A stretch of 32,000 nucleotides of DNA from Psychrobium sp. nBUS_13 (GTDB lineage: Bacteria; Pseudomonadota; Gammaproteobacteria; Enterobacterales; Psychrobiaceae), in contig NZ_CP179211.1 in NCBI RefSeq assembly GCF_051201665.1, positions 50,060 to 82,059 on the forward strand. The letters are read 5' to 3'. The notes under the pieces were generated by a model. That model was given only the letters and a program-made list of their open reading frames with translations, was not told the DNA's origin and ran no database searches. The first letter of the stretch is position 1; each line of letters starts with the position of its first letter. Shown piece after piece: positions 10,366-32,000 of the stretch. A program made the translations under genes and the position numbers.

Positions 10366-10453
10366 TGTCACCAACGGTGCAAAAATGACCCACTAACATC
10401 GATCCAAAATTGACCCACCGATGTATCATTTATTTATTTTTAGGTGATACGGT

Positions 10454-12249
<1,796 letters not shown>

Positions 12250-13996: not shown

Positions 13997-15112
13997 TTAA
14001 TCTATTACTATTATCTGGTCATTAACTGTATAGCCGTACCAATTGCTTGTGTCGATACAGCCTTTAAGTGTTCTTAAGCCCATTTCGGTATCTCGCCACC
14101 CCTGCTCTTGCCTTTTTTTAGATAATTCAAATATCTCGCAAATTTCTGCTTCTTCATATTCGATAGCTACAAATGCAAACACTTCTACAGGTACATCAAG
14201 TAAGTTGGCGACATATTTATAAAATTCTGCTTGTACGTCATAATTAAGGTCTTTGCACTGCTTAGAAAACTTATAGGGTTCAGCACTTCTCGCCGTTTTT
14301 ATATCAATAGCGATCGCATCTCTTCTGAGATAGTCAATTTTGATTTTTAACAGTAAGCCTGTTATTGGGTCCTTTGCGATCATCGTTATTTCTGGAAAAC
14401 CATCTTTAGTTAATAAAGGCGCCCTAGTATGCTTTAAGAACGCAGATTCGACCTGTTTTGCTTTATTCCACTGCTCTACCTCTACTGGCAGCTTTAGACA
14501 TTGCTTTTTCACCAATTGTGTTTCGTAAGCCTTATGTATGTTTATTGCTTTTTTGTTTCTAACCAGTTCTTGAGCTATCTGAAAAGCTTTCTTACCAGTG
14601 TTCTTCATATATGAACTAGCGACAATTAAATCAAATATTTCAATTGTCATATCGTGCTGAGCCAACCTTTCTATCAATTCGGGTTTATTACCGGTCTTCG
14701 CTAATCCCACTTCATCACATTTATTTGCCAGTTCTTTACTTGTTACTAGTGCTTTAGGATGTTCTGATTGATTAGGCAATCGGAAGTACTTTTTCTCGAA
14801 CTCATTAGGTTCTAAAATTAATTCATGCCCTAAAGTCCCAATTTCCATTGCCCTACTTCGAGTAAAGAGTGATTCAGAGGATTCTTTTTCATCTAGTATT
14901 TTCTTCGCATGAGCAGGAGTTTTAGAAACTAACTTTTTAATAATTGATGAATTAATTGCATCAAGTGAGTGATAAGTTTCATTATCTAAACCAGTGTAAA
15001 TACCGCAGATCAAACCACCGTTATCATCTATAAAATTCGGTATGTCGTCGCTATACGCAGGCATTACATTATCTAACCAAGTCGTTTCTTCATGCGTTGC
15101 ATTAAACGTCAT
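13997..15112 (-). CDS. RecE/YqaJ-type PD-(D/E)XK exonuclease with an inserted SAP-like motif
   Basis: GTLGHELILEP, IKIDYL...AIDIKTA (D..D.K) and YDVQAEFY (QxxxY), typical of the PD-(D/E)XK RecE-like fold. Residues ~123-152, SKELANKCDEVGLAKTGNKPELIERLAQ, match the SAP pattern. Sits directly upstream of recT. Confidence 0.7.
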   Translation of the reverse strand: MTFNATHEETTWLDNVMPAYSDDIPNFIDDNGGLICGIYTGLDNETYHSLDAINSSIIKKLVSKTPAHAKKILDEKESSESLFTRSRAMEIGTLGHELILEPNEFEKKYFRLPNQSEHPKALVTSKELANKCDEVGLAKTGNKPELIERLAQHDMTIEIFDLIVASSYMKNTGKKAFQIAQELVRNKKAINIHKAYETQLVKKQCLKLPVEVEQWNKAKQVESAFLKHTRAPLLTKDGFPEITMIAKDPITGLLLKIKIDYLRRDAIAIDIKTARSAEPYKFSKQCKDLNYDVQAEFYKYVANLLDVPVEVFAFVAIEYEEAEICEIFELSKKRQEQGWRDTEMGLRTLKGCIDTSNWYGYTVNDQIIVID

Positions 15113-15200
15113 GTTTCATTTCCATTTTGATATTTACATTCATTAAAGCATCATCTTTTAATCGCGCAACTTGTGACTTATTAACCATTACAGAAGAAAA

Positions 15201-15342
15201 GTTCACAGTGTGAATTTTTTAGCTAGATTAAACTGTTAGTTAAGTAGATGGGGGAGGGGGCAATGTTCACAGTGTGAACATTATTAGCGCCTCAATTATT
15301 AGCGGCTCTAATGGATGGAGAAAAGTTCACACTGTGAACTTT
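15201..15342. promoter_or_regulatory. Three spaced copies of a 15-21-bp palindrome (GTTCACAGTGTGAAC type); operator or centromere candidates
   Basis: AAAAGTTCACAGTGTGAATTTTT (centre 15208), AATGTTCACAGTGTGAACATT (15262-15282, centre 15272) and AAAGTTCACACTGTGAACTTT (15322-15342, centre 15332). Spacings are 64 and 60 bp. They lie 90-230 bp upstream of the recE-like start. Confidence 0.6.
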
Positions 15343-15385
15343 CATTATACTACTCAGAAATGCCATATATTTTGAGGATGAAATG

Positions 15386-15656
15386 TTTTGGAACAATAAA
15401 GTTTGTACAGAACAGTTAATGTTTGTACACAAGAGGATTTTGGAATAATAAAGATTGTACATAGTAAAGAAGGCTTGCAAGGTCACGATATATATCAAGG
15501 ACTTAACGAGTCGTAAAACTGTACATGTAAATAAACTAGACGCACCAACCTTAAGTCAGCAAGCAAAGGTTATGGGAATTAGTGTACAAACTTTATTATA
15601 CCGTCCGTTGTAAGTTACTGATTTTTGGTAGCCCTTGTGTACAAACTTTTTTATAC
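15386..15656. repeat. Family of TGTACA-containing repeats in both orientations
   Basis: TTTTGGAACAATAAAGTTTGTACAG (15386-15410), AATGTTTGTACAC (15418-15430), TTTTGGAATAATAAAGATTGTACAT (15438-15462), AACTGTACATGTAAAT (~15517-15532); inverted copies GTGTACAAACTTTATTATAC (~15582-15601) and GTGTACAAACTTTTTTATAC (~15638-15657). Confidence 0.6.
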
Positions 15657-15664
15657 ATAAACAC

Positions 15665-16030
15665 TTACTTTACGTGATCAAGTGAAGCGCAAACACCTTG
15701 AGTTTCAAATTCAAAATAATTAATAGGCATAGGTTTAGTTATTGTTACTTCGAATGACTCACTGCCTACTTCTTTTAGAGAATTGTTACTTATAGAGCTT
15801 TCAAGAGAAACGTTCGATTTATCAGCAAGCATTGATTGAACACCAATTTTAGCGTTTTTCTTGGCTGTGGCCATTGAGGTATTCGGTAGCAATTCAACGC
15901 AGTAAATTAAATTACCTTTATATTTAAGCAGCGAAAGTTCTTCAAAAGTCATTGAATTTAAATTAGTCTCAGCAGTGATTGCTCCTGCAGAAGTTAATAA
16001 TATTAATGTTAGCCTGAGTGTTTTTATCAT
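15665..16030 (-). CDS. Small secreted hypothetical protein (121 aa)
   Basis: N-terminal signal-peptide-like MIKTLRLTLILLTSAGAITAE. ATGA overlap with the upstream ORF. Confidence 0.55.
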   Translation of the reverse strand: MIKTLRLTLILLTSAGAITAETNLNSMTFEELSLLKYKGNLIYCVELLPNTSMATAKKNAKIGVQSMLADKSNVSLESSISNNSLKEVGSESFEVTITKPMPINYFEFETQGVCASLDHVK

Positions 16031-18835: not shown

Positions 18836-19876
18836 TTAGTTATTAGCTCCTAAGATCTCCTTGATTGCATTTTCTACTTCATCAAGTTTATCAGTGCTTA
18901 AATTACAAAACTGGTAACTAGTTTCGTTGTCTTTTGTGATTATTTTATAGTTGCCACCTCCCTTTGCTGAATATGAAAAAGTACTTGCTTCAACTGTTGT
19001 CTTTTGACTATTTAACTCTTTCAATAGAAGTTCTAATACCTGTGAATTAAGCTTATACGGGTTTCTACTTCCTGCAAGCTGACATAAATCTTCAAAAGTA
19101 TGCTTCTGTACAATAGTGGATGCTTTTACTAGTTCTTTCGATGGCCGTTCTTTTGCTAAAGAGCGTAGCGTAGTGATCGTTGGTCGGCCTAGTTGTGTTA
19201 GATGTGGGAACAAATCGATTAAAAACTCTGGAATTTTACTAGCGCTGATGGCCATTGATACCATAGATGGAGTAATACCTTCGGCTTCAGCAATGGCTCT
19301 AGCGTTTTTGTACACTTTAGTTTCTATTTGATGTGTGTATTTTCTACCTTGTTCAATCAAGGAAAGAGGCTTGGATAAATTAGTAATATCTGCAAGATAC
19401 TTAGCATCTTCATCTTCAACTATTAACTTAGTTACATAGATTTTGAACGGAATACCTACTGATAAACAAGAAAACCTTCTTCTGCTGCCACTTAATACTG
19501 CAATTTTACCATTTTCGTTTAAGTACCCAATACCAGGTACTATTTGGCCACGTTTAACCATCGTTGCAGATAGATCTTCAACGCTTTCTTGAGTTACAAA
19601 TTTAGGGTCACGGCCATTCTGATCTGGTACAAATGTTTTGTCTTCAATCTCGCTGCTTTGGACAGTAATCAACTCAAAAACTGCTAGTTGATCATCACTT
19701 ATTTTAAGTTCTATTGTTGAGTTGCCTGACGTTAAAAGTGACGCGTTTTCTTTGGCATCTTTCAACGCTGAAGCGTTCATACCTGCAACTTTTACATTAT
19801 CACCAAGAACTGCACCCTTTACGCGCCGGCGACTTGTTTTTTTATCTTGAGTAGTCATATATTTTATATACCCCAT
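18836..19876 (-). CDS. parB: ParB-family partition protein
   Basis: ParB N-terminal domain signature IAVLSGSRRRFSCL (GxRRxxA-type). Overlaps the parA stop. The alternative start is at 19858. Confidence 0.8.
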   Translation of the reverse strand: MGYIKYMTTQDKKTSRRRVKGAVLGDNVKVAGMNASALKDAKENASLLTSGNSTIELKISDDQLAVFELITVQSSEIEDKTFVPDQNGRDPKFVTQESVEDLSATMVKRGQIVPGIGYLNENGKIAVLSGSRRRFSCLSVGIPFKIYVTKLIVEDEDAKYLADITNLSKPLSLIEQGRKYTHQIETKVYKNARAIAEAEGITPSMVSMAISASKIPEFLIDLFPHLTQLGRPTITTLRSLAKERPSKELVKASTIVQKHTFEDLCQLAGSRNPYKLNSQVLELLLKELNSQKTTVEASTFSYSAKGGGNYKIITKDNETSYQFCNLSTDKLDEVENAIKEILGANN

Positions 19877-21066
19877 AGCTCACAACATTCGAGCTCTATT
19901 TCATTAATTATCAGCCGATATTCATTTTGAGCTAATTTTAAAGAGGCTTTACTTGCCGGATATTCACTTGCGCTATAATCGTAAACTGTACAATAGTCTT
20001 CTGCACAATTTGTTACAGCATCAGATTCAATGAATTCATGTGTGTATATATGTTGAAAATCTCTCGATTTGTTACATGCCATTCTGATATTTTGAGCTAT
20101 TCGGACCTGAGATACACTTGAACGTCGAATACCTGACAGCATCACTTTTACATTGTCGTATCCTTTATGTCCCATTCCCATTAGTAAACTATACATATCA
20201 GCTAAGAATTTAACGTACTTTTCAGATGAGTCTTGGTCGTTCTCTGAGGGGCGTATAGGCACTATTAATGATGTTGCTACATAATGACCTGCTAACGTCA
20301 TTGCTGAAAAATACGGTGACGTATCAATAAATAGGATGTCAAAATCATCTTTTACTGAGTCGATAATTTTCTCCATGGCAGTATACGCATTATATGATTC
20401 ACCAGCCTCTTCAGCTTCATTTTCACGCATTTTTACATAGAACTCATGCTGTCTATCTTCGGGTCTTGAACACATAACCCTAAAGTTCGGAATGTTAGTC
20501 TCATAGAAAGCTTCTTTACATAAATCTGAAAATGTTTCGCCTTCAGATAATTCAAAGTTTTCCATCAGTAAATCACCGATTGATAGGTCATCATCTGAAA
20601 AATTAGGCTTCAACATGGCTGTAGACGTACCTTGAGGATCTAAATCTAGCACGCCGACTCTATAACCTTTTGGTATCTCGATGGCCAAACCTGAAGCTAA
20701 AGTTACAGTAATAGTTGTTTTACCGGCTCCGCCCTTTAAATTACTGACGCAGTAAATTGGTAATTTAGATTGATTTTGAAAAAGTTCTTCTTGCGAACAT
20801 GCTTTTCTAAGCTTTAAAACATCATCTATGTCGATTTGCCAAGATTTATCAAATCTGGTGAAGTCGATATCTAACTCTTTGCAAAGAGCAGTGATTTTGC
20901 GTGCATGAGCACCAGTTGCCGCAACTGCTTCTGTTTGATTGTAAGTGCGTTTAAGTTTTCCGTTAACGTTCTCAGTAGAAAGGACACTTTGCTTATTATC
21001 GAGATTCAGTGCAGCTAGATAGCTAGAAAGGTTAGTAATACTTTCAAGTGTTGCTACGGGTGTCAT
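19864..21066 (-). CDS. parA: ParA partition ATPase, type Ia (long N-terminal extension)
   Basis: Deviant Walker A NLKGGAGKTT and DLDPQG. About 400 aa, like P1 ParA / F SopA. The ATG at 21066 has AAGGA upstream; the ORF-track TTG at 21111 is less likely. Confidence 0.85.
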   Translation of the reverse strand: MTPVATLESITNLSSYLAALNLDNKQSVLSTENVNGKLKRTYNQTEAVAATGAHARKITALCKELDIDFTRFDKSWQIDIDDVLKLRKACSQEELFQNQSKLPIYCVSNLKGGAGKTTITVTLASGLAIEIPKGYRVGVLDLDPQGTSTAMLKPNFSDDDLSIGDLLMENFELSEGETFSDLCKEAFYETNIPNFRVMCSRPEDRQHEFYVKMRENEAEEAGESYNAYTAMEKIIDSVKDDFDILFIDTSPYFSAMTLAGHYVATSLIVPIRPSENDQDSSEKYVKFLADMYSLLMGMGHKGYDNVKVMLSGIRRSSVSQVRIAQNIRMACNKSRDFQHIYTHEFIESDAVTNCAEDYCTVYDYSASEYPASKASLKLAQNEYRLIINEIELECCELWGI

Positions 21067-21173
21067 GGATATTCCTTTAATTAAAGTTATCTTATCCATC
21101 AATGGTAACAAATAGTTTCAATGAAAAAAAGAAGATTAGAGGATTTATATTGAAATGGGTATTTGTAATGAGG

Positions 21174-21206
21174 TTTATTGGCTTCTCTTTAAGAGAAGCC
21201 AATAAA
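21174..21206. promoter_or_regulatory. Perfect 33-bp palindrome upstream of parA
   Basis: TTTATTGGCTTCTCTT-T-AAGAGAAGCCAATAAA (16-bp arms). No U-tract follows on either strand. Confidence 0.5.
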
Positions 21207-21213
21207 TAATCAG

Positions 21214-21483
21214 TTATTCGCTTAGCTCTTCAAAAACTGCCTTTGTTTTATGTTCTATAGAAAACAATAGATTTAAAACAAGCATAATTAATAATAGAGG
21301 CAGGCCGATAGAGATAATTGTCGCCAAGGATAATTGATCTACCGCAGCAAAAATTAAAGCTCCGATGACGAGGAATAGCACAACTCGAATCATTAATTTT
21401 GTTATCTTTAGCTGCTGATTTACATCTCGTTTAGAGTGCTTGAGTGAAAACTTATAGATATTAAGTAAATAGTTATTTTTCAT
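21214..21483 (-). CDS. Small membrane protein (89 aa, two TM helices)
   Basis: VVLFLVIGALIFAAV and IISIGLPLLLIMLVLNLLF. Confidence 0.5.
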   Translation of the reverse strand: MKNNYLLNIYKFSLKHSKRDVNQQLKITKLMIRVVLFLVIGALIFAAVDQLSLATIISIGLPLLLIMLVLNLLFSIEHKTKAVFEELSE

Positions 21484-21487
21484 ATCT

Positions 21488-21745
21488 TTATCCTTTATTT
21501 GATGAAGTTGGTTTACTTGTTAAGTCAGCTGGTGTGATACCAGCTGCTTTAAGTTGATTCAAAAAATCAGCGACTTTTTCTCTTTTTTCTGCATCCTTGC
21601 GAGCGCTCTCAGCTCTTTGCTGCTCTCTGGACGTTAAGATTGACTGAAGATTAGCTATCACAGCGCTAATTTGCTTATCAGATAAAGTGGCTACAACTTT
21701 TTTTAGTTTAGTCTTGCTCTTAAGCAAGCTTAGATATTCAGTCAA
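21488..21745 (-). CDS. H-NS N-terminal (oligomerisation) domain-only protein, 85 aa
   Basis: Collinear with the E. coli H-NS N-terminal half (from memory): LKILNNIRTLR...LEKLEVVVNERREEE...[20 protein letters not shown] versus LSLLKSKTKLK...IANLQSILTSREQQR...KVADFLNQLKAAGITPADL. No TWTGQGRTP-type DNA-binding domain. TTG start 5 nt after AGGAG. Confidence 0.65.
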   Translation of the reverse strand: MTEYLSLLKSKTKLKKVVATLSDKQISAVIANLQSILTSREQQRAESARKDAEKREKVADFLNQLKAAGITPADLTSKPTSSNKG

Positions 21746-21757
21746 AATTTCTCCTAA

Positions 21758-22339
21758 TTATTTGGCTTGTTTAACTTTTTGTTTATTAATTTGCGAATAC
21801 ATTTTTTCAAATGCAGCATCCATGGCCGAGTTGCTTTCAATCGACTGAGCCTCTGAAAGTAGTTTGTTGTATTGGCTATACGGCATTTTAAGTAATGAAT
21901 AAGCATGAACCTTTGTACCTACGACAAATACTTCTCTTTTTACTCGTTCAACACCGGATAATGGGACGCTATCGACAACTGCATCAATTAATGAGGTTGA
22001 TTGGCTAGATAGGTCAGCATCAGTATTTAATTGCTCGTAGGTTCTATCTTGGCCAGTGAATACTTGTTTAATTTGTGTTGCTAAATCGAACTTTGCACGT
22101 TGTTCTGATAGCTTAAGCGAGTAATGAACCTTGTTCGCTTCACCAAAACCAACGCCATAAACACCTGTTGCATCAGGTTTCGGAACTTCTAAATACCAAT
22201 CAGGCACCTGCGCAAGAGAATCTTTTAGTTGCTCCAAACGTTGCTCAATAGCTTCATTTGCTATATCCGCTTGTTTGTCAGCTATTGAAGAACAACCAGA
22301 AGCAATAAGTATCGTTGATATTAAAGTTATTTTTTTCAT
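21758..22339 (-). CDS. Lipoprotein (LPP20-like, tentative)
   Basis: Lipobox LIASGC at aa 12-17. The family assignment from GVYGVGFGEA...LATQIKQ is weak. Confidence 0.6.
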   Translation of the reverse strand: MKKITLISTILIASGCSSIADKQADIANEAIEQRLEQLKDSLAQVPDWYLEVPKPDATGVYGVGFGEANKVHYSLKLSEQRAKFDLATQIKQVFTGQDRTYEQLNTDADLSSQSTSLIDAVVDSVPLSGVERVKREVFVVGTKVHAYSLLKMPYSQYNKLLSEAQSIESNSAMDAAFEKMYSQINKQKVKQAK

Positions 22340-22610
22340 GTTAAACCTTTAAAAGTAGTGAGTGTTTAATGAGATTAGCAAATAATAATAATGGCGCAAC
22401 TTGGTAATTATCAATATAAAAGTATACCATCATGCAAAATTGAGAATAATACAACACTACCCACACTCAACATTCAAACACGAAAAAATTGCCCCTCGAT
22501 TCAAAAAAGAATGCGAAATGCAAAAAAAAAGAAATTTAAGTAGATAAAATGACAATAAAGTTTGCGCCATCCAATATAATTACAGCATGATGGTATACTT
22601 AGGAGTTAAC

Positions 22611-23516
22611 ATGACAAATATTGTAAACATGGTTCAGTCATTATTTTATGAACTTAAACGTGAAACAAATGACCTCAAGCAGTACTTAAGGACTAACAAA
22701 CCACAACAAATAATATGTTTTGAATTACCGGCCATTTCAGCTGAAACCAAAGAATTGCCGAGTTTTGAAGAACGCACTATTACTGTCAAGCAAATTACTG
22801 ATCATGAGCAAGCTCTTGCTTTGGCTAATCGGTATTTATCAAATTATTTTATAGAAGATAATGCATCTAAAAAATTTGCTTCAAGATGTCCGGGCATCAT
22901 TCAGATGAAATCTGAGCATAAAGATTATGTCGTTTTACGTATTACTCGTATTAATAGAATTAAAGAAGAAATTAAAGCAGCTATAACAGCAAAAGATGAA
23001 GAAGGGATCGATTTATTTACCAGGAGTGAACGTTTCAATATTTTACGTGAAGCTATACCAGGTGTCGTCACTTTAAAGTTATATCGAAAAATACAGTGTA
23101 TCGCCCAATCATTAGCATCTATTTCTTTTACGTGGGCGAATAAACAATCAATTACCAAAATTGATCTTGAATCTTTAAAAAAGCTACTAGAGTTAAATAA
23201 AAAGAACATTCCAAGTGAATCTCAACAGAATGAATGGGATGACTTCATTAATCTTGAAATAAAAGCTGTTACTGATTCAAAAGCTAAAATGTTTAAATTT
23301 AGAAGACCTGTTCCTGCAGCTCCAATGGTTAATTTAAGGTTTACTGATAAAACCAAAGCGATGAGACATGCACATTTACCAATATTTATATTTGGTAATG
23401 AAGTGATTAAGGTTTCGCCTTTAAAAAGTTACTGGCCAGATACAGGGCATTACAGACAACGCATAGAAATCGAGAAATACCTAATAAACAGACTTAAAAT
23501 AATCCCTACTGACTAA
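22611..23516 (+). CDS. tus: Tus-like replication terminus-binding protein homologue (301 aa)
   Basis: Blocks collinear with E. coli Tus (309 aa, from memory): RLPGVLCYQV/RCPGIIQMKS; HLPGLITLNAYR...RFGWANKHIIKNL/AIPGVVTLKLYR...SFTWANKQSITKI; KIKRPVKVQPIARVWY/KFRRPVPAAPMVNLRF; HACPTPLIAL/HAHLPIFIFG; IIPRLHLYVAD/LINRLKIIPTD. The ATG at 22611 has AGGAG 6 nt upstream. Confidence 0.75.
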   Translation: MTNIVNMVQSLFYELKRETNDLKQYLRTNKPQQIICFELPAISAETKELPSFEERTITVKQITDHEQALALANRYLSNYFIEDNASKKFASRCPGIIQMKSEHKDYVVLRITRINRIKEEIKAAITAKDEEGIDLFTRSERFNILREAIPGVVTLKLYRKIQCIAQSLASISFTWANKQSITKIDLESLKKLLELNKKNIPSESQQNEWDDFINLEIKAVTDSKAKMFKFRRPVPAAPMVNLRFTDKTKAMRHAHLPIFIFGNEVIKVSPLKSYWPDTGHYRQRIEIEKYLINRLKIIPTD

Positions 23517-23626
23517 AAAACAGACGGAGTTTAAAAAAATTGAAAATTCGAGAAAAAATTGGAATATGTTCAATATAAATACTGATAGAATTTTCGTATA
23601 ACTAAAGTAAATATTAAAAGTTAAGT

Positions 23627-23954
23627 TAACTTCTAATATTTACATGGTTAATTTTAAGTCACACTTTTAAGATTAAAGTTAACTTCTAGTCAAATACTTT
23701 TTATATGTACGTGCAACATCAATTATTACTTAAAATAAACTTAACTTTTAGTATTTTCTAATTTTATATAAATTAAATTACTTAAAGTTAACTTAACTTT
23801 TAATAATCCCTCTACCAATTTACTCTTTTAGAACCAAGATTAAACTTAACTTCTAATATTTCCTTCTCTTTAAACCTAACTTCTAATATCCTTTACTTGC
23901 AATTAAAGCTAACTTCTAATATTTTAGATCAAATGATACTTAACTTTTGATCTA
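23627..23954 (+). repeat. Eight direct iterons (replication origin candidate)
   Basis: Core TAACTT(C/T)TA(A/G)TATT starts at 23627, 23680, 23742, 23794, 23847, 23877, 23910 and 23941. Extended consensus ATTAAA(C/G)(T/C)TAACTTCTAATATTT. Directly upstream of the rep gene. Confidence 0.85.
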
Positions 23955-23970
23955 AACTTACGGAACACAA

Positions 23971-25065
23971 ATGGCAGATTCTGATCCTAACGAGCTTTCA
24001 GTATATGACTTCATTTTTAATGATTTCTTAACTCAACAAAAAGGCGAGCAGCTAGTATCCAGCTCTATGTTTAATAAGATTTTTATTATGGGTAATCGTG
24101 TTCCAAAAGAGCTCATCGATCAGATAGCAGATAACCCACAAAAAATAGAAGATATGTTGACTGCTAACATCCCATTATTTCAGACATCCATATCTAAACG
24201 TTATTGGGTGACTCAAAACAGAGGTTTTGACAAAGTAAACGTTGATATCTACGGTGCAATTTGCCTAGCTGATGATAGACATTTACTTGACTGTTTAATT
24301 GCTCATGGAAATATTATTAATGGTGCAGATAAGTACACTCTAAGACAAGTTGCTGAAGGTTGTGGTTTGCAAGACGTTGCATGGGAATTTACCGATCTTA
24401 ATTATATTGATAAACCAATGCTTAACAGAGGTATATACTTTCATATTTCTGTTAAGGATTTATTTAAAGCGCTAGGACTTAAAGCAGCTAAAAAAAACCG
24501 TGAAACGATTCTTAAACGGCTAAGAAGATTGTCTATTATGAAGTTAGTTCTTAGTCCTGTTAGTGGAGAAACAGTATTAACTCAGGGAAAAACTGGTTTT
24601 TCATTTGTAGATGAGAAGTTTTTCTCACTACTGGATAAGTCGAAAATTAGAAATGGTATATTTTCTTCAGATACATATACCGATCTTATTGTTAATGTGT
24701 CTGGATATTATGTACAAAGCTTAAAAAAAGATGGCGCTATTAGTCGTAAAAGATTAAAAAATCATTATGTAAATTTAGTTGGTAAGAATTGTATTGAAGA
24801 TTTTTATAAGTCGCTTGAAGAACATAAAAGAGAGTTTTTGCATGGACGTGAGCTCAGTTTTTTCATTAATCTGTACATTGATAATAAAATGTCATTGTTT
24901 GGAATCAATAGAAATCACAAATATAAACAAATCATGCAGCAAATAGCTGAGAGTGAGCAGAAATTGATTAATCATTTTAATATGACATTAGAGCCTATCA
25001 TCGATCATAAAAATAAAATAAAAGATTACAAGCTAATTTATTTAGGAAGAATGAGTAACCAATAA
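23971..25065 (+). CDS. rep: Putative iteron-binding replication initiator
   Basis: Assigned by position (immediately downstream of the iterons) and size. No family motif recognised with confidence. Confidence 0.6.
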   Translation: MADSDPNELSVYDFIFNDFLTQQKGEQLVSSSMFNKIFIMGNRVPKELIDQIADNPQKIEDMLTANIPLFQTSISKRYWVTQNRGFDKVNVDIYGAICLADDRHLLDCLIAHGNIINGADKYTLRQVAEGCGLQDVAWEFTDLNYIDKPMLNRGIYFHISVKDLFKALGLKAAKKNRETILKRLRRLSIMKLVLSPVSGETVLTQGKTGFSFVDEKFFSLLDKSKIRNGIFSSDTYTDLIVNVSGYYVQSLKKDGAISRKRLKNHYVNLVGKNCIEDFYKSLEEHKREFLHGRELSFFINLYIDNKMSLFGINRNHKYKQIMQQIAESEQKLINHFNMTLEPIIDHKNKIKDYKLIYLGRMSNQ

Positions 25066-26042
25066 TGGGAAAGTTATTACAATTAGATCCAGTAACATTA
25101 AGTAATAGTGCTAACGAGCGTTCTTCTCTTTCTATCGTGAGGGGGCTTTCGAGAGGTGAAGTAGGATTTATTCTAGCTGCACCAGATACAGGTAAAGGCT
25201 ACTTATGCTTATCAATGTGTTATGAGTTGGCTTCTGAATTAAGTTTAGTTGGTTTAAAAACAACTAAACAGCCAATAAAGACACTCTATTGGCCAAAAGA
25301 AGATGGTTTCGCTGCAGTTGCACAACGTATCAGTGATCATTTTTTAAATTTTTCTACTAAAAATACAAATGAAATATTAAAAAATTTTAAAATTTGGCAG
25401 AGCGAACAATATATAAGTGAGGATAAAACCGACACTATCGCGTACAAAGAATTAAATGATTTAATTGCTACTGCAAAAGATTTCGATATTTTATTTATAG
25501 ATACGTTACGTGAGTGTGTTGGTCCTAAGGATGAAGTTAAAGATGATAAGCTTATTAAGTTAATTTTACAGAAAATAGCGAAAGAAGCAGATATAGCTAT
25601 TATTGCTTGTCATCATATCACCAAGGATGCAGCAAAAGGAAAAGAGCCTATATCAAGTGTTAGTGGTAGTGGTCTAAGTGAAACACTTGCTAATAGTCGT
25701 ATGCTAATTCATATAGAAAAAGTAATAAAGAATAATAAAGAATCTACTTTGATAAGTCATATAAAGCATAATTATATAGCTAAGGAAGATGTTCTTCGCT
25801 CTAAAATATGTACCTGGTCTGATAATAACCTTTTAACTTTAAAGTCATCTTCATTAGTGAATAGTAAAAAAGCCATTGAAAGACAAGTTATTGAAGAAGT
25901 AGAACCAAGTGAAATTAATATGGATTCAGTTACATTAAGCCACTCTTCAATGTTAATAATGGAAGAGCAAGCTGAACTTACTAATCCTTTATCAGATGTT
26001 GATCTTATGGAACATAAAAAGTTTATAGATTCTCAAAATTGA
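25065..26042 (+). CDS. RecA-fold ATPase of the RSF1010 RepA / AAA_25 type (putative replicative helicase)
   Basis: Walker A AAPDTGKGYL, Walker B DILFIDTL, and IIACHHITKD (HHxxK motif typical of this family). TAATG overlap with rep. Confidence 0.65.
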   Translation: MGKLLQLDPVTLSNSANERSSLSIVRGLSRGEVGFILAAPDTGKGYLCLSMCYELASELSLVGLKTTKQPIKTLYWPKEDGFAAVAQRISDHFLNFSTKNTNEILKNFKIWQSEQYISEDKTDTIAYKELNDLIATAKDFDILFIDTLRECVGPKDEVKDDKLIKLILQKIAKEADIAIIACHHITKDAAKGKEPISSVSGSGLSETLANSRMLIHIEKVIKNNKESTLISHIKHNYIAKEDVLRSKICTWSDNNLLTLKSSSLVNSKKAIERQVIEEVEPSEINMDSVTLSHSSMLIMEEQAELTNPLSDVDLMEHKKFIDSQN

Positions 26043-26232
26043 TCATAAGTTAGGTATAATCTTCAATATTAGATCTAAAGTTAAGTTTGAAATTAAATTT
26101 TAGATCTAAAGTAAGGTTTAAAAGATCTTAATTTAACTATAAAAGATCCAATTTAACCTAACTTCTAATATTTAGATCATTATTTAGCTTTAATTTGTAC
26201 CATAGAACTATAGAACTATAGAACTATAGATC
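26041..26232. repeat. Second iteron-like cluster with seven GATC sites
   Basis: Forward iteron TTTAACCTAACTTCTAATATTTAG (core 26159-26172). Inverted iteron-like AGATCTAAAGTTAAGTTT (26071-26088) and TAGATCTAAAGTAAGGTTT (26101-26119). GATC at 26041, 26072, 26103, 26124, 26145, 26175 and 26229. Confidence 0.7.
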
Positions 26233-27337: not shown

Positions 27338-27655
27338 ATGAGAAAGCATAGAAAAAAGCACGAATGGGCAGCAGTCTTTGAAGAGCAACAACGCAGTGGC
27401 TTAAGCATCATTGAGTTTTGTAAGCTGCATGCCATATCAACAACCAACTTTTATAAGGTGCGAGCGAACATTCGAGGTAAAACATCCGGTAAGCCAGCCT
27501 TTATCAAAGCAACGATTACTAAAGATAATGACAATCCTAACGTCACATCAACAAGCCAAGTGTTCAGGCTCACAACAAAACACGCACAAATCATATTGCC
27601 AAACCACTGCTCAAGCCAGTTTATCGTTGATATTCTCAAAGGACTGCAAGCATGA
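27338..27655 (+). CDS. tnpA: IS66-family accessory protein TnpA (Orf1)
   Basis: Position, size, and the HTH-like SGLSIIEFCKLHAISTTNFYKV. ATGA overlap with tnpB. Confidence 0.8.
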   Translation: MRKHRKKHEWAAVFEEQQRSGLSIIEFCKLHAISTTNFYKVRANIRGKTSGKPAFIKATITKDNDNPNVTSTSQVFRLTTKHAQIILPNHCSSQFIVDILKGLQA

Positions 27656-27999
27656 AGATGTTTGTCGAACCAGACCAAATCTATTTACATCGCGATTTTG
27701 TTGATTTTAGAAAGTCTATTAACGGGCTAACTGAACTTGTTGAAAACTCACTTGAGCGCGATGCTTATACCGGTGAACTATTTATTTTTTGCAATAAATC
27801 CAAGGATAAAATCAAGCTGCTTTACTGGGATAAAACGGGGTTTGCCCTGTGGTATAAACGACTAGATAAGCACAAGTTTAAATGGCCCAGTAAAATCAAC
27901 GAGCAATCACTAGCGCTAGATGTGCAACAGCTTGACTGGTTACTCTCTGGTTTTGATGTGCTTGGCCATGAGACACTTAACTACCAGTCATTATTATGA
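27652..27999 (+). CDS. tnpB: IS66-family TnpB (Orf2)
   Basis: IYLHRDFVDFRKSINGLTELV...LFIFCNKSKDKIKLLYWDKTGFALWYKRL, the conserved IS66 Orf2 pattern. Confidence 0.85.
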   Translation: MKMFVEPDQIYLHRDFVDFRKSINGLTELVENSLERDAYTGELFIFCNKSKDKIKLLYWDKTGFALWYKRLDKHKFKWPSKINEQSLALDVQQLDWLLSGFDVLGHETLNYQSLL

Positions 28000-28101
28000 T
28001 CTTATTCTCGTCAAGGAACATTGACGAAACTCTCTAGATTACCTCGCATTAATTTCCCCTCAATAGCGCATAGTCGTTGGCTTTTTGTTAAGCTTCTGAG
28101 T

Positions 28102-29652
28102 ATGAAAATAGACATTAACTCACTCCCTGATGACCCCGCACAACTTAAGCAAATGCTGCTTGAGTTGCAACGGAGTGTGAGTGAAAAAGATAAAATCATC
28201 AGCGAGCAACTATCACAAATAAACCAGTTTATTGAAGATTACGAACTGGCAAAACGTAAGGCTTATGGTAAACGTTCTGAAAAGCTCGCCGGCAACGATG
28301 AAGTCTTTAACGAGGCCGAAGAAACGCTCGATGATGAAGATAAAGCGCTTATTGCTCAGAGTGATAATCAACAAGCTGCTCGCGATAAGCAATCACCCAA
28401 GCGCAAACCGTTGCCCAAGGATCTTGACAGAGAGATCGTCGTCATTGACGTACCAGATGCTGAAAAAATCTGTGACTGTTGCCAAGGTGAACTTCACCAA
28501 ATAGGTGAAGCGAGCAGTGAAAAGCTAGAGTTTATCCCCGCTCAAATCAAAGTGATTGAAACAAGGCGGCCTAAATATAGCTGCCGTCACTGCGAGAAAG
28601 AAGAAACAAGCAACACTATCAAGGTCGCTCCAGTTCCAGCGTCCCCCATCCCTAAAGGTATTGCCACCGCAAGCTTATTAAGTCAGATAATCAGTGGGAA
28701 GTATCAATATGGATTACCGCTCTATCGACAAGAATCTATGTTTAGGGAGCTGGGGATAGAGTTAAGCCGTAAAAGCATGTCGCAATGGGTGATACGTTGT
28801 AGCGAGCTTCTTGAGCCAATCACTCAAGCATTAAGGCAGCACTTACTGAAGCAGCGTGTGATTAATGCCGACGAAACGACGTTAAATGTTACCAACGAGG
28901 AAAAATCGACTTGTTACATGTGGGTCTATTGCGCGGGCAAAGATAAACTGAGCAACAGCGTTTTGCCAAACATAGTGCTCTATGATTATCAAAATAATCG
29001 GCGTGGTGAATGTGTGGTTAATTACCTTGATGGCTATACAGGATACCTCCAAGTAGATGGCTATCAGGCGTACGGTCAAACGAAAGCTACCTTGGCAGGA
29101 TGTATGGCGCACGCTCGGCGAAAATTTACAGATGCTAAAGCGGTCCAGCCCAAAAATAAGACGGGCAAGTCTGATGTGGTGCTGACATTAATCCAAACGC
29201 TTTATGGCATAGAGTCTGGCTTAGTAGGAAAATCATTTGAGGAGATAAAAGCCAGACGGCAGGAAAAATCCAAACCTATCCTAGATAAAATTCAGGCATG
29301 GGCACTAGCGCACCGAGACAAGGTGCCGGAGAAAACGAAGTTGGGGATAGCCATAAAATACTGGCTCAACCAATGGCCAAAACTCATCACTTATCTCGAT
29401 GATGGGCAAATAAGCATCGACAACAATCGTGCAGAGCGAGCTGTAAAGCCGTTTGTCATTGGTCGCAAGAACTGGTTGTTCTCAAACACGGCGCGGGGTG
29501 CAAAAGCCAGCGCGATATTGTATAGCCTCATTGAAACGGCGAAGGCCAACGGCAAGTTCGCCGATAGCTACCTGCAATACTGCCTAAACGAGTTGGCAAA
29601 GAATCCAGAAGACGTTGAATATCTGCTACCTTGGAATGTTAAGCTTGTCTAG
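28102..29652 (+). CDS. tnpC: IS66-family DDE transposase TnpC
   Basis: Cys pairs CDCC...CRHC, LPLYRQ, ADETT, VDGYQAY, DNNRAERA.KPFVIGRKNWLF. The ATG at 28102 is preferred to the ORF-track TTG at 28021. Confidence 0.9.
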   Translation: MKIDINSLPDDPAQLKQMLLELQRSVSEKDKIISEQLSQINQFIEDYELAKRKAYGKRSEKLAGNDEVFNEAEETLDDEDKALIAQSDNQQAARDKQSPKRKPLPKDLDREIVVIDVPDAEKICDCCQGELHQIGEASSEKLEFIPAQIKVIETRRPKYSCRHCEKEETSNTIKVAPVPASPIPKGIATASLLSQIISGKYQYGLPLYRQESMFRELGIELSRKSMSQWVIRCSELLEPITQALRQHLLKQRVINADETTLNVTNEEKSTCYMWVYCAGKDKLSNSVLPNIVLYDYQNNRRGECVVNYLDGYTGYLQVDGYQAYGQTKATLAGCMAHARRKFTDAKAVQPKNKTGKSDVVLTLIQTLYGIESGLVGKSFEEIKARRQEKSKPILDKIQAWALAHRDKVPEKTKLGIAIKYWLNQWPKLITYLDDGQISIDNNRAERAVKPFVIGRKNWLFSNTARGAKASAILYSLIETAKANGKFADSYLQYCLNELAKNPEDVEYLLPWNVKLV

Positions 29653-30470: not shown

Positions 30471-32000
30471 GTAAGCGTCTAGGCAACGACACCTAGCTAT
30501 TTAAAATTCCAAGGCATTAGTGATTCAAGAGCATCAGGATTTTCAGCAATCTGCTCTAAACAGTGGGATATATAGTCATGTACGACAAGGCCGTTAGCCT
30601 TAGCGGTTTCCACCAAACTATAGAGAATGGCGCTGGCTTTCGCACCTCTTGGGGTATGGGAAAACAACCAAGCCTTGCGTCCAATCACAAACGGTTTTAT
30701 GGCTCGTTCTGCACGATTGTTATCAATACTTAACTTACCATCATCAAGGTAGCGTTTGAATTTTTCATACTGATTCAGTGCATAGGTAATGGCTTTTGAC
30801 AGCGGCCTTTGCGGAGACAGTTTTTCTTTGTGCTCTACAAGCCAGTGATAAAACTCTTCGACAATGGGTTTGGCTTGTTGTTGGCGAGCCTTGTATTTTT
30901 CATCGTCCTTCATCTCTTTAATCGATTGCTCTATACCATAGAGTTTACCAATGAAGTTAAGCGCTACGTCGGCTTTACCGGTTGTCTTGTTGTTGCCTTT
31001 TGCTTCAATGAACTTGCGACGGATATGAGCAAGACAAGCCACTAAAGTGGCGCTGGTTTTTTCATAACCTTTGTAGCCATCAACGTGCATGTAACCTGAG
31101 TAATCATCGAGAAAATCAATGGCGCATTGTCCTGCACGACTGTTGTGATAATCAAATAAGACGATGTTTGTCTTACCTTCAGGTTTGTCATCACCGCAAC
31201 AATATAACCACATATAGCTGGTCGCTTTGTTAGCTTTGATAACCTTGAGCGGTGTTTCATCCGCATGAATCGCAGGTTGTTGGAGTAACTGTTCTTTGAG
31301 TGTGTCATACAACGGTTCAAGCAGTTCGCTACAACGAACCATCCAACTTGACATGGTTTTGCGATTAATCGTTATGCCGATATCGCCAAACCACGTTTCT
31401 TGTCGATACAACGGTAAGCCAAACTGATACTTACAGGTAATGATTTGACTGAGTAAACTTGGCGTAGCAATACTTTTAGGGATAGGAGTTGACGGCATTG
31501 GCGCTATCTGGATATCGCTTTGTATGCCCTCTTTTTCACACGCTCTGCATGCGTACTTTGGACGAACGGTTTTAATAACCTTGATATGAGCAGGTACAAA
31601 TTCGAGCGTTTCACTTTCTGCTTCACCCATTTTATGTAACGCACTTTGACAGTGACTACAGACTTTAGCGTCGTCGTGTAAATCAACCACCACCTCTTTG
31701 CGAGGTAAGGCCTCGGGTAATGGTGTGCGCTTGGGTTTTGCTTTTTCGGTGTGTGGTTCATCATTGGCGATGAGGAGCGCTTTTTCTGTGTCAGACAGCG
31801 TTTCTATGTCATCCAATTGAGCTTCTACTTCGTTAAATACTTCACCAGCCCCTGGCATTTTCTCTGACTTTTTGCCGTATTCTTTGGCAATCTTGGCGTT
31901 ATACGCATCAAGTAGTTCTTGATAGAGAGACTTTTGCTGCGCTAACTCTTTGTTTTGCTTTTGCACAACGTACTGCAACTCAAGCAGCATGCTCTTGAGT
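30471..32000 (-). mobile_element. Second IS66-family element (inverted, diverged), partial at the window edge
   Basis: The terminus GTAAGCGTCTAGGCAACGACACCTAG at 30471 nearly matches the IRR of the first copy. tnpC reads leftward. Confidence 0.85.
30497..32000 (-). CDS. tnpC: IS66-family transposase TnpC, N-terminus outside the window
   Basis: Collinear with the first TnpC at roughly 60% identity by eye (LPLYRQ, ADETP, VDGYKGY, DNNRAERAIKPFVIGRKAWLF). The frame remains open beyond the ATG at 31990. Confidence 0.9.
   Translation of the reverse strand, partial: LKSMLLELQYVVQKQNKELAQQKSLYQELLDAYNAKIAKEYGKKSEKMPGAGEVFNEVEAQLDDIETLSDTEKALLIANDEPHTEKAKPKRTPLPEALPRKEVVVDLHDDAKVCSHCQSALHKMGEAESETLEFVPAHIKVIKTVRPKYACRACEKEGIQSDIQIAPMPSTPIPKSIATPSLLSQIITCKYQFGLPLYRQETWFGDIGITINRKTMSSWMVRCSELLEPLYDTLKEQLLQQPAIHADETPLKVIKANKATSYMWLYCCGDDKPEGKTNIVLFDYHNSRAGQCAIDFLDDYSGYMHVDGYKGYEKTSATLVACLAHIRRKFIEAKGNNKTTGKADVALNFIGKLYGIEQSIKEMKDDEKYKARQQQAKPIVEEFYHWLVEHKEKLSPQRPLSKAITYALNQYEKFKRYLDDGKLSIDNNRAERAIKPFVIGRKAWLFSHTPRGAKASAILYSLVETAKANGLVVHDYISHCLEQIAENPDALESLMPWNFK

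What the first reader, a model, noticed from the sequence alone, without database searches (positions are those of the whole stretch)
22611..23516. Tus homologue encoded immediately beside an iteron origin
The 301-aa product is collinear with E. coli Tus over several blocks (see the feature evidence) and has almost the same length. To my knowledge Tus has a narrow distribution (Enterobacterales, some Aeromonadales and Pseudoalteromonas, a few plasmids), and plasmids that use Ter sites normally borrow the host protein. Here the gene lies about 100 bp upstream of eight iterons, rep and a dedicated helicase gene. This suggests a replicon that carries its own initiation, unwinding and termination functions. 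A weak relative of the repeated motif (ATGACAATAAAG, about 22550-22561) lies roughly 50 bp upstream of the start codon. That recalls TerB-mediated autoregulation of E. coli tus, but the match is only 8/13.
Basis: partly seen in the sequence, partly recalled or inferred. Interest (0 to 1): 0.7.

Follow-up and report, generated by a model that had tools for sequence, protein, structure and literature searches.

The report
Plasmid Tus with paired Ter-like sites
The gene really is a divergent replication-terminator (Tus) gene beside a plasmid origin, which is a known arrangement, but just upstream lie two conserved inverted 16-bp sites that look like the long-sought binding sites of plasmid-type Tus proteins.

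Summary
Confirmed: ORF 22611-23516 is a full-length Tus-family protein (Pfam Ter E=3e-45; the predicted fold matches only E. coli Tus). It is already annotated as Tus on a ~100-kb Psychrobium plasmid. It lies 103 bp from eight iterons, a candidate rep gene and an AAA_25 ATPase gene.

Plasmid tus genes are common (1257 PLSDB records). Tus beside a plasmid-type origin is already described for Pseudoalteromonas chromids. The proposed operator (ATGACAATAAAG) is not conserved.

New here: two perfect inverted 16-bp sites, GCATGATGGTATACTT, at 22420-22435 and 22585-22600, flank the tus promoter. The same inverted pair heads tus in 13 of 16 non-E. coli loci examined (relatives, Pseudoalteromonas plasmids, IncC, Aeromonas, pMEGA, a Xenorhabdus plasmid, a chromid). 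Its sequence changes with the Tus clade. All variants keep the left half of E. coli Ter, (A)G(T/C)ATG(T/A)TG, in TerB's position and orientation.

Best reading: these are the cognate Ter sites. They would form a compact two-way fork trap and autoregulatory operator. About 1 kb from the origin, the trap would force one-way replication, as in R1. Binding and fork arrest are inferred, not shown.

The parts
22611..23516 (+). tus: 301-aa Tus-family replication terminus site-binding protein (stop codon included)
   Evidence: Pfam Ter E=3.4e-45, full length. PDB Tus E=7e-16. AF2 model with Foldseek hits only Tus. Identical NCBI protein is named Tus.
22602..22606 (+). AGGAG ribosome-binding site, 4 nt before ATG 22611
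   Evidence: Read from the sequence. N-termini of homologues align to the 22611 start.
22585..22600 (+). Proximal Ter-like site GCATGATGGTATACTT, read toward tus. Candidate Tus-binding site and operator. Same position and orientation as E. coli TerB.
   Evidence: Perfect 16-nt inverted-repeat arm. Invariant in relatives with 55-64% Tus identity while the flanks diverge. Lineage-specific variants lie upstream of tus in other plasmids.
22420..22435 (-). Distal Ter-like site, the same 16-mer on the minus strand. Its GCATG end faces the proximal site.
22436..22584 (.). 149-bp interval between the sites. It holds a consensus TATAAT at 22575-22580 (probable tus -10, so the transcription start would fall inside the proximal site), a C-rich block and an A-rich tract. 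Proposed fork-fusion zone.
   Evidence: Sequence. Purine tract. The 50-aa ORF 22391-22543 that overlaps it is not conserved.
23517..23618 (.). A+T-rich spacer between the tus stop and the first iteron, partly conserved in L004 (possible unwinding element)
   Evidence: alignment. GC 0.30-0.31 in this region.
23619..23951 (+). Eight iterons (core ACTTAACTTCTAAT), spaced 52-53 and 30-33 bp apart
   Evidence: the repeat finder families D1 and D4. The iteron core is conserved in L004.
23971..25065 (+). Candidate Rep initiator, 364 aa, no family assignment
   Evidence: No Pfam, NCBIfam or PDB hit. 36-37% identical to 'hypothetical' proteins next to the AAA_25 gene of pAQU-type Vibrio/Photobacterium plasmids. 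The role is inferred from its position after the iterons.
25065..26042 (+). AAA_25 P-loop ATPase (RSF1010 RepA-like family); possible replicative helicase
   Evidence: Pfam AAA_25 E=3.5e-17. 35.6-39% identical to the pAQU-type protein that the pAQU1 authors called RepA, which is 24% identical to RSF1010 RepA. Walker A reads GKG.
18836..21111 (-). parB (18836-19876) and parA (19864-21111) partition genes of the same backbone
   Evidence: Pfam and NCBIfam. Synteny is conserved in L003, L004 and L007.
21214..22339 (-). Three small genes transcribed away from tus: an 89-aa product that reads as hydrophobic and may be a membrane protein, an H-NS N-terminal-domain protein and an LPP20-type lipoprotein
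   Evidence: Synteny in relatives.

Best explanation
Shown: ORF 22611-23516 encodes a genuine but divergent Tus-family protein (25% identical to E. coli Tus). It belongs to the conserved replication and maintenance backbone of a ~100-kb Psychrobium plasmid, in the order parB-parA-small gene-hns-lpp20 (leftward), then tus, iterons, rep and AAA_25 (rightward). Two identical 16-bp asymmetric sites in inverted orientation (22420-22435 on the minus strand, 22585-22600 on the plus strand) bracket the tus promoter. They are conserved wherever related tus genes occur.

Inferred: these sites are the cognate Ter sites of this Tus. One Tus monomer binds each site. The proximal complex covers the transcription start and autoregulates tus, as TerB does in E. 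coli. If polarity is as in E. coli, the G(6)/C(6) end is the blocking face. Both blocking faces then point into the 149-bp interval, so a fork from either side passes the first site and stops at the second. That makes a minimal two-way fork trap like the R6K terminus.

The trap sits 1.0-1.2 kb left of the iterons. Any leftward fork would stop almost at once at the distal site. The rightward fork would copy nearly the whole plasmid and stop at the proximal site. Replication would therefore be effectively unidirectional, and re-entry into the origin (over-replication, rolling circles, multimers) would be prevented, as for Tus/Ter in plasmid R1. According to the published distribution (Galli 2019), resident tus genes are restricted to Enterobacterales, Pseudoalteromonas and Aeromonadales. 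Psychrobium belongs to the Shewanellaceae, so the host probably lacks tus, which would explain why the plasmid carries its own.
For: Protein identity.

Sites in the window:
- A 16-nt perfect inverted repeat with 149 nt between the arms. The longest inverted repeat in 500 shuffles of the same 400 nt was 12 nt.
- It is the only pair in the 32-kb window at up to 2-3 mismatches.

Conservation:
- The 14-nt core GCATGATGGTATAC is invariant in L003-L008 (Tus 55-64% identical). The surrounding intergenic DNA diverges, with 73% mean column identity and indels.

Association with tus rather than with its neighbours:
- In 11 of the first 12 non-E. coli loci, the longest exact inverted repeat in the 400 nt upstream of tus is this motif family. 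The proximal arm starts 11-75 nt before the ATG and the gap is 89-253 nt, although the flanking genes differ.
- With five further loci the count is 13 of 16. A Xenorhabdus plasmid and A. salmonicida pAsa4b have the pair; Citrobacter, Proteus and L137 show a single site.

Co-variation with the protein:
- GGTATA sites go with the Psychrobium and Pseudoalteromonas-plasmid Tus clade. GGTCTA sites go with the IncC/Aeromonas/pMEGA clade. TGTGTTCTT goes with the Pseudoalteromonas chromid. The protein tree matches these classes.

Link to E. coli Ter:
- All variants keep (A)G(T/C)ATG(T/A)TG, which corresponds to Ter positions 5-13, in the same orientation relative to the tus ATG as TerB.
- Stepwise intermediates connect them: E. 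coli GGATGTTGTAAC, Xenorhabdus/L137 GTATGTTGGCATA, Pseudoalteromonas plasmids GTATGATGGTATA, window GCATGATGGTATA.

Lock pocket:
- E. coli I79/F140/H144/G149 correspond to I/F/R/G here. R232, K175 and K89 are conserved.

One pair per replicon:
- The complete pMEGA (64.7 kb) has only the tus-proximal pair. The 50 kb on the oriV side of IncC pYR1 has none.

Precedents:
- TerB lies in the tus promoter (PMC8347550).
- R1 has ter sites next to its origin that enforce one-way replication (PMC10331603).
- Pseudoalteromonas chromids with origin-adjacent tus replicate unidirectionally (PMC7858055).
Against: - No binding or fork-arrest data exist for any Tus of this clade.
- The right half of the site (GGTATACTT) does not match E. 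coli Ter (TAACTAAAG). The E. coli core ATGTTGTAACTA occurs in the window only at chance level (4 hits against 5.4 expected).
- Pocket residue H144 is Arg. R198 and E49, which are important in E. coli, are Pro and Lys.
- NCBIfam Tus equivalog models score below their cut-offs (134.7 against 323).
- The motif contains an extended -10-like TGGTATACT, so part of its conservation could be promoter function.
- Only 32 of about 100 kb of this plasmid could be searched for further sites.
- GC skew changes sign at 22-24 kb. That is what bidirectional replication would give, although the change coincides with the switch of gene strand.
- In other plasmids the same cassette lies 16-20 kb from rep. Closeness to the origin is therefore not intrinsic to the cassette.
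Confidence: 0.55

Rival explanations
1. Operator only. Tus binds the two sites purely as a transcriptional autoregulator, possibly also regulating the divergent lpp20-hns-par genes. Fork arrest at these sites plays no part in plasmid replication.
For: The proximal site lies between a consensus TATAAT (22575-22580) and the RBS, as TerB does in E. coli. In the window the sites flank a divergent intergenic region.
Against: One site is enough for autoregulation in E. coli. The second, inverted copy is kept even where the upstream gene runs in the same direction as tus, so there is no divergent promoter to control there (IncC, Aeromonas, P. donghaensis). The lock-pocket residues F140, I79 and G149 are retained. 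A Tus-Ter complex is expected to block forks by its mechanism, whatever else it does.
Confidence: 0.2
2. The inverted 16-mers are not Tus sites. They are promoter elements or the target of another host or plasmid factor. The real Ter sites, if any, lie in the roughly 68 kb of the plasmid outside the window.
For: The motif includes TGGTATACT, close to an extended -10. Most of the plasmid was not available. The right half does not resemble E. coli Ter.
Against: In the IncC/pMEGA variants the -10-like part is TCTAAA, which lacks the key A at position 2, yet the upstream CATGATGG is invariant. The pair follows tus across unrelated backbones and changes with the Tus clade. The complete pMEGA has no other copy and no alternative repeated site was seen. 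The shared left half equals Ter positions 5-13.
Confidence: 0.13
3. The protein is a Tus-fold DNA-binding protein with a different job, for example a regulator or roadblock unrelated to termination of vegetative replication, such as control of conjugative or rolling-circle DNA synthesis.
For: Most tus-bearing plasmids are conjugative MOBH types. Equivalog HMM thresholds are not reached. R198 and E49 are not conserved.
Against: The fold and most pocket residues are conserved over the full length. In this clade tus is embedded in the rep/par backbone, not in tra genes. No tra genes lie next to it in the window.
Confidence: 0.07
4. One reading: autoregulation through the iteron-like ATGACAATAAAG at 22550-22561.
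For: It lies about 50 bp upstream of the start and contains a -35-like ATGACA.
Against: It is not conserved in L004 or L007.
Confidence: 0.02

Closest known systems
E. coli Tus with TerB in the tus promoter
   Same: Homologous protein and fold. An asymmetric site lies just upstream of tus in the same orientation, and its left half (A)G(T/C)ATG(T/A)TG is shared. Autoregulation is the likely consequence.
   Different: Only 25% protein identity. The right half of the site differs (GGTATACTT against TAACTAAAG). H144 is Arg, R198 is Pro, E49 is Lys. Here a second inverted copy sits 149 bp away, whereas the E. coli sites are spread over a large terminus region. Plasmid context next to an origin.
Pseudoalteromonas chromid ori2 cluster (tus-repA-parA2B2-helicase; Galli 2019, Xie 2021)
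   Same: Tus is encoded beside a plasmid-type origin together with rep, par and a putative helicase. Unidirectional replication has been shown experimentally there. The same inverted-site geometry lies upstream of tus (L133).
   Different: That is a domesticated 0.8-Mb chromid with a different Tus clade (23% identity) and a different site (AGTAnGATGTGTTCTT). Its Ter sites were reported as not found (PMC7858055). Here the replicon is a ~100-kb plasmid in a different family (Shewanellaceae) with an unrelated Rep.
R1/R100 (IncFII) and R6K plasmid termini
   Same: Pairs of oppositely oriented Ter sites on a plasmid. In R1 they lie next to the origin and force one-way replication and prevent rolling-circle forms and multimers (PMC10331603, PMC8347550). 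In R6K they are two close inverted polar sites (from my own knowledge: Horiuchi & Hidaka 1988).
   Different: Those plasmids use E. coli-type Ter sequences and the host's Tus. This plasmid encodes its own Tus and has a divergent site embedded in the tus promoter.
Mobile tus genes of IncC, pAQU, IncT, Aeromonas and Pseudoalteromonas plasmids
   Same: Same protein family. The same tus-proximal inverted pair is present in the IncC, Aeromonas and Pseudoalteromonas plasmids examined (GCATGATGGTCTAA or GTATGATGGTATAG). The Rep and AAA_25 pair of this plasmid is 35.6-39% identical to that of pAQU-type plasmids.
   Different: In those plasmids tus lies 16-20 kb or more from rep (IncC pYR1, pMEGA) or is not near rep (pTUMSAT-OK2). 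Only the Psychrobium clade (window, L004) has the cassette docked on the iteron origin. Tus identity is at most 31%.

Membership tests
Tus / Ter protein family (Pfam PF05472) | Full-length match to the family profile above the curated threshold | tested here: met
   154.8 bits against a cut-off of 22, residues 9-297 of 301.
Tus / Ter protein family (Pfam PF05472) | Tus fold | tested here: met
   AF2 model with pLDDT 75. Foldseek against the PDB returns only Tus chains with E<=2e-16 and TM 0.62-0.67. The C-terminal ~30 residues are modelled poorly.
E. coli-type Tus (NCBIfam equivalogs NF002810, TIGR02648) | Score above the equivalog cut-off | tested here: not met
   134.7 against 323 and 80.8 against 178.3 bits. 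It is a family member but not an equivalog of the enterobacterial protein.
Tus-Ter lock mechanism | Cytosine-binding pocket residues I79, F140, H144, G149 (E. coli numbering, recalled from Mulcair et al. 2006) | tested here: inconclusive
   In a 160-sequence alignment the window has I, F, R, G. The H-to-R change is shared with 31 of the 160 family members in that alignment. R198 is Pro and E49 is Lys. Three of four residues are identical. Whether Arg can hold the flipped base is unknown.
Tus-Ter system | Cognate Ter sites matching the E. coli core ATGTTGTAACTA | tested here: not met
   4 hits at up to 2 mismatches against 5.4 expected by chance.
Tus-Ter system | Asymmetric conserved site in the tus promoter (TerB-like) that shares sequence with Ter | tested here: met
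   GCATGATGGTATACTT at 22585-22600 has the same orientation as TerB and shares Ter positions 5-13. It is conserved and co-varies with the Tus clade.
Tus-Ter system | Specific binding and polar arrest of replication forks | not testable with these tools
   Needs EMSA or SPR, ChIP, 2D gels or marker-frequency analysis.
Iteron-type theta replicon | Array of direct repeats next to a rep gene | tested here: met
   Eight ~19-nt repeats at 23619-23951, immediately upstream of ORF 23971-25065. The repeat core is conserved in L004.
Iteron-type theta replicon | Rep protein belonging to a known initiator family | tested here: not met
   No Pfam, NCBIfam or PDB match. Homologues in pAQU-type plasmids are annotated as hypothetical.
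Iteron-type theta replicon | DnaA box at the origin | tested here: not met
   No TTATCCACA with up to 1 mismatch between 22.3 and 24.0 kb. Not all iteron origins have one.
RSF1010 RepA-like replicative helicase (AAA_25) | AAA_25 domain with intact Walker A GK[ST] | tested here: inconclusive
   AAA_25 E=3.5e-17, but Walker A reads GKG in the window and L004, against GKS in the Vibrio homologue. No PDB sequence match.
Plasmid fork trap of the R6K/R1 type | Two polar sites in opposite orientation, with blocking faces pointing inward | tested here: inconclusive
   The geometry is met: the pair is inverted and the GCATG (Ter position 6) ends face each other. Polarity is inferred only by alignment to TerB.

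The most novel reading that the evidence does not exclude
tus plus its two inverted promoter-embedded Ter sites is a self-contained, portable two-way fork-trap cassette that travels among gammaproteobacterial plasmids. Its sites diversify together with the protein but keep the C(6)-lock half. E. coli tus-TerB and the Pseudoalteromonas chromid arrangement would be domesticated remnants of it. In the Psychrobium plasmid clade the cassette is docked on the iteron origin, giving the 'plasmid ancestor' state postulated by Galli et al. 2019. If so, reading tus promoters reveals the unknown Ter sequences of all non-enterobacterial Tus lineages.
Probability: 0.45. Interest if true: 0.78.

Novelty: new variant of a known kind. 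Interest (0 to 1): 0.6.

Why it matters
The gene alone is ordinary. It is already annotated as Tus, and plasmid tus genes are common.

What matters is the pair of sites. Reviews mark the Ter sites of Pseudoalteromonas chromids and mobile Tus proteins with a question mark, and a search with the E. coli consensus failed (PMC7858055, PMC10331603). A conserved inverted pair that changes with the Tus clade and sits in every tus promoter gives concrete candidate Ter sequences for IncC, pAQU-like, Aeromonas and Pseudoalteromonas plasmids and for chromids.

If confirmed, this would support a plasmid origin of the E. coli fork trap. It would also offer orthogonal Tus/Ter barrier pairs as tools. The idea can be tested directly with oligonucleotides and purified protein. 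IncC plasmids are major carriers of antibiotic resistance, so a termination module that may contribute to their stability is also of practical interest.

Tried and rejected
A longer or two-part pattern should have been used.
- Attempts to extend the plasmid beyond the window failed. They gave one 4.8-kb contig and one protein not on record.
- The E. coli Ter core search in the window was at chance level.
- The 50-aa ORF 22391-22543 between the sites was rejected as a gene, because its ATG is lost in L004 and the region has indels.
- A promoter-only reading of the motif was rejected as insufficient, because the -10-like part varies at its key base while CATGATGG stays invariant.
- Rfam found nothing in the window.
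- No DnaA box lies at the origin.
- GC skew was examined but is confounded by gene strand.
- Full-text searches for the motif sequences and for plasmid-encoded Tus sites found no prior description in the library searched.
- Only the first 50 kb and the tus region of IncC pYR1 were scanned, not the whole plasmid.
Full report

Yes. An ORF runs 22587-23516 on the plus strand.
- AGGAG lies at 22602-22606.
- The upstream ATG at 22587 is part of a conserved DNA motif. In the close relative L004 that ATG is followed by an in-frame stop.
- Homologues align from this start.

The 301-aa product is a Tus-family protein by every test:
- It matches Pfam Ter (PF05472) end to end: E=3.4e-45, 154.8 bits against a cut-off of 22.
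- It matches E. coli Tus chains in the PDB at E=7e-16.
- An AlphaFold2 model built on five sequences (pLDDT 75, pTM 0.66) recovers only Tus structures in the PDB (1ecr E=8e-18, TM 0.67). The next hit has E=0.39.

[quoted passage not shown] Psychrobium is a genus of the Shewanellaceae, order Alteromonadales.

**2. The neighbourhood**

Downstream of tus lie, in order:
- a 103-bp A+T-rich spacer;
- eight ~19-nt iterons at 23619-23951, spaced 52-53 and 30-33 bp apart;
- a 364-aa ORF with no Pfam, NCBIfam or PDB match;
- a translationally coupled 325-aa AAA_25 ATPase.

The Rep and AAA_25 pair is 35.6-39% identical to a pair found in pAQU-type conjugative plasmids of Vibrio and Photobacterium. The authors of pAQU1 called the AAA_25 protein RepA and noted 24% identity to the RSF1010 RepA helicase (PMC4036041).

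Upstream and divergent from tus lie an LPP20 lipoprotein gene, an H-NS N-terminal-domain gene, a small gene whose 89-aa product reads as hydrophobic, parA, parB and a tyrosine recombinase gene.

This whole order is conserved in metagenomic relatives whose Tus is 64% (L003-L006) and 55% (L007) identical. L004 also shows tus, iterons, rep and AAA_25 in the same arrangement. Tus is therefore part of the replication and maintenance backbone of this plasmid clade, not cargo.

**3.

- Plasmid tus is not rare. tblastn finds homologues in 1257 of 72,556 PLSDB records, mostly conjugative plasmids: IncC in Klebsiella, Salmonella and Escherichia, plus Providencia, Vibrio, Aeromonas, Shewanella and Pseudoalteromonas. 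Galli et al. 2019 already separated 'resident' from plasmid-borne 'mobile' tus and proposed that tus was domesticated from plasmids (PMC6549158).
- A tus gene next to a plasmid-type origin, with repA, parAB and a putative helicase, is the described state of Pseudoalteromonas chromids. These replicate unidirectionally (PMC7858055; PMC10331603).
- The suggested operator ATGACAATAAAG (22550-22561) is not conserved in the relatives.
- The window Tus is nevertheless divergent. Its best PLSDB match is 31% identical. Only four closer relatives (45-64%) exist among 5.8 billion clustered proteins. It forms its own 50%-identity cluster among about 270 Tus clusters.

**4. The new element: an inverted pair of Ter-like sites**

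I aligned the tus upstream regions of the window, L004 and L007. The DNA is diverged, except for two blocks that are invariant and are reverse complements of each other.

In the window they are 22420-22435 (minus strand) and 22585-22600 (plus strand): 16 nt, 100% complementary, 149 nt apart. Statistics for this pair:
- 500 shuffles of the same 400 nt never gave an inverted repeat longer than 12 nt.
- No other copy exists in the 32-kb window at up to 2-3 mismatches.
- The site itself is asymmetric, which is what a monomeric Tus would be expected to recognise.
- The proximal copy ends 10 nt before the ATG. It lies just downstream of a consensus TATAAT (22575-22580), so transcription would start inside it.

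I then looked upstream of tus in unrelated plasmids:
- In 11 of the first 12 non-E. coli loci, the longest exact inverted repeat in the 400 nt upstream of tus is the same kind of pair.
- Five more loci were added, giving 13 of 16 overall. A Xenorhabdus plasmid and A. salmonicida pAsa4b also have the pair. Citrobacter and Proteus plasmids and metagenomic locus L137 show only a single upstream site.
- The flanking genes differ from locus to locus, so the pair travels with tus.

The site sequences, all read toward the tus ATG:

| Lineage | Site |
|---|---|
| Window, L004, L007 | GCATGATGGTATAC |
| P. spongiae, P. donghaensis, P. carrageenovora plasmids | GTATGATGGTATA(G/A) |
| IncC pYR1, Shewanella IncC, Aeromonas pHX3, pAsa4b, pMEGA | GCATGATGGTCTAA |
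| Xenorhabdus plasmid | (G/T)TATGTTGGCATATT |
| Pseudoalteromonas chromid (one proximal, two distal copies) | AGTAnGATGTGTTCTT |

The site class follows the protein clade in a neighbour-joining tree. The window clade is sister to the Pseudoalteromonas-plasmid Tus proteins.

All these sites share (A)G(T/C)ATG(T/A)TG when read toward tus. E. coli TerB upstream of tus reads AAGGATGTTGTAACTAAAGT in the same orientation, 10 nt before the ATG. The shared block corresponds to Ter positions 5-13, which include the G·C(6) pair.

Intermediates link the extremes stepwise:
- E. coli: GGATGTTGTAAC
- L137 and Xenorhabdus: GTATGTTGGCATA
- Pseudoalteromonas plasmids: GTATGATGGTATA
- Window: GCATGATGGTATA
- IncC: GCATGATGGTCTA

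The complete 64.7-kb pMEGA carries only the tus-proximal pair. The oriV-side 50 kb of IncC pYR1 has none.

**5. Lock residues**

In a 160-sequence alignment, the E. coli pocket residues I79/F140/H144/G149 (recalled from Mulcair et al. 2006) correspond to I/F/R/G in the window protein.
- Arg at position 144 is shared with IncC and pMEGA and with 31 of the 160 family members in the alignment.
- R232, K175 and K89 are conserved.
- R198 is Pro and E49 is Lys.

The part of the protein that deals with the conserved half of the site is thus largely kept. This fits the pattern seen in the DNA, but it is not proof.

**6. How it most likely works**

Inferred: one Tus monomer binds each site.
- The proximal complex occludes the tus transcription start and gives autoregulation as at TerB (PMC8347550).
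- In E. coli the blocking face is the position-1-to-6 end, from my own knowledge of the Tus-Ter lock. TerB blocks forks moving in the direction of tus transcription.
- Transferred here by the alignment, both blocking faces point into the 149-bp interval.
- A fork from either side would pass the first site and stop at the second. This is a working two-way trap, as in the R6K terminus (my own knowledge).
- The opposite polarity would leave the interval unreplicated, so the geometry is at least self-consistent.

The trap lies 1.0-1.2 kb left of the iterons, which gives the following picture:
- A leftward fork would be stopped almost at once at 22420-22435.
- The rightward fork would copy about 99% of the plasmid and stop at 22585-22600, before re-entering tus and the origin.
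- That is the R1 logic of one-way replication without over-replication, rolling circles or multimers (PMC10331603; PMC8347550). It matches the one-way replication shown for chromids with origin-adjacent tus.

In IncC and pMEGA the same cassette lies 16-20 kb from rep. The cassette is therefore portable, and its docking on the origin is specific to the Psychrobium clade.

**7. Caveats**

- There is no biochemical evidence for binding or fork arrest.
- The right half of the site is unlike E. coli Ter.
- The protein scores below the NCBIfam equivalog cut-offs.
- The motif includes an extended -10-like TGGTATACT. However, the IncC variant TCTAAA is a poor -10, while CATGATGG stays invariant.
- Only a third of the plasmid could be searched.
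- GC skew flips sign at 22-24 kb. This would fit bidirectional replication, but it coincides exactly with the switch of gene strand.
- 'Rep' is assigned by position only. 'Helicase' is assigned by family only, and the Walker A motif is unusual (GKG).

**8. Novelty and verdict**

The finding as written is a new member of known kinds: mobile plasmid tus, and tus beside a plasmid-type origin.

The added result is the tus-proximal inverted pair. It co-varies with the Tus clade and retains the lock half of Ter. I did not find it described in the library searched. It addresses a gap stated in the literature: the Pseudoalteromonas Ter sites were 'highly divergent or unrelated' and are 'marked with a question mark'.

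I rate this a new variant of a known kind, with interest 0.6.

Noticed in passing
window 22436-22584; L131 3735-3920; L007 8454-8592: Between the two Ter-like sites every lineage has a C-rich block followed by a homopurine/homopyrimidine tract. It is purine-rich on the tus sense strand in the Psychrobium and Pseudoalteromonas-plasmid clade (15 nt in the window, 36 nt in L007). It is pyrimidine-rich, 28-37 nt, in IncC, Aeromonas and pMEGA. Function unknown.
   Followed up: partly
L133 3666-3676 (-), 3778-3788 (-), 3885-3895 (+): A Pseudoalteromonas sp. CF6-2 chromid has three copies of AGTAnGATGTGTTCTT upstream of tus, one proximal and two inverted distal. These are candidate Ter sites for chromids, for which a published search with the E. 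coli consensus failed.
   Followed up: partly
window 15198-15342 and 15381-15666: The intergenic region contains three copies of a ~20-bp palindrome (AAAGTTCACAGTGTGAACTTT) and several inverted copies of AAAGTTTGTACA. They could be a centromere or operator array. The binding protein is not identified.
   Followed up: no
window 21174-21206: A perfect 16+16-nt palindrome, TTTATTGGCTTCTCTT/AAGAGAAGCCAATAAA, lies just upstream of the parA start. It is a likely par operator or a terminator of the preceding small gene.
   Followed up: no
window 25065-26042; L004 6604-7593: The AAA_25 protein has Walker A APDTGKGY (GKG) in the window and L004. The Vibrio homologue has the canonical GKS. ATPase or helicase activity may be altered.
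   Followed up: partly
L003 and L005, about 260 nt after the tus stop (L003 ~11163): Two contigs carrying the identical 64%-relative Tus diverge from L004 in the middle of the iteron array and continue into unrelated redox and sigma-factor genes. This is either an assembly chimera at the repeats or a real rearrangement or integration at the origin.
   Followed up: partly
window 26159-26169 (+): An isolated iteron-like copy (TAACTTCTAAT with at most 1 mismatch) lies downstream of the AAA_25 gene. L004 has similar outlying copies at 7703 and 8480. They may be regulatory or handcuffing sites.
   Followed up: no
window 10454-12249, 27338-29652, 30497-31990: Insertion sequences flank the backbone. 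An IS21-type pair (rve and IstB) sits at 10454-12249, with the rve ORF beginning 24 bp beyond the 5' end of a RecD-like helicase gene (8978-10429, minus strand). Two ORFs have IS66-type transposase features: 30497-31990 by Pfam, and 28021-29652 by reading, with what look like accessory ORFs at 27338-27999.
   Followed up: no
window 5355-6509, 8978-10429, 13997-15112: Further DNA-metabolism genes are present: a Toprim/DUF7146 primase-like protein, a RecD/TraI-like SF1 helicase and a PDDEXK (DUF3799) nuclease with a SAP domain. The plasmid carries more replication and recombination functions than the origin module alone.
   Followed up: no
L141 ~1425-1445; L142 ~1430-1450: In Citrobacter and Proteus plasmids the site upstream of tus is a single near-palindromic element (GAGTATGTATGTACATACAG and AAGTATGGATATATATACAG), followed by a GC-rich hairpin. 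This is a different solution from the separated pair.
   Followed up: no
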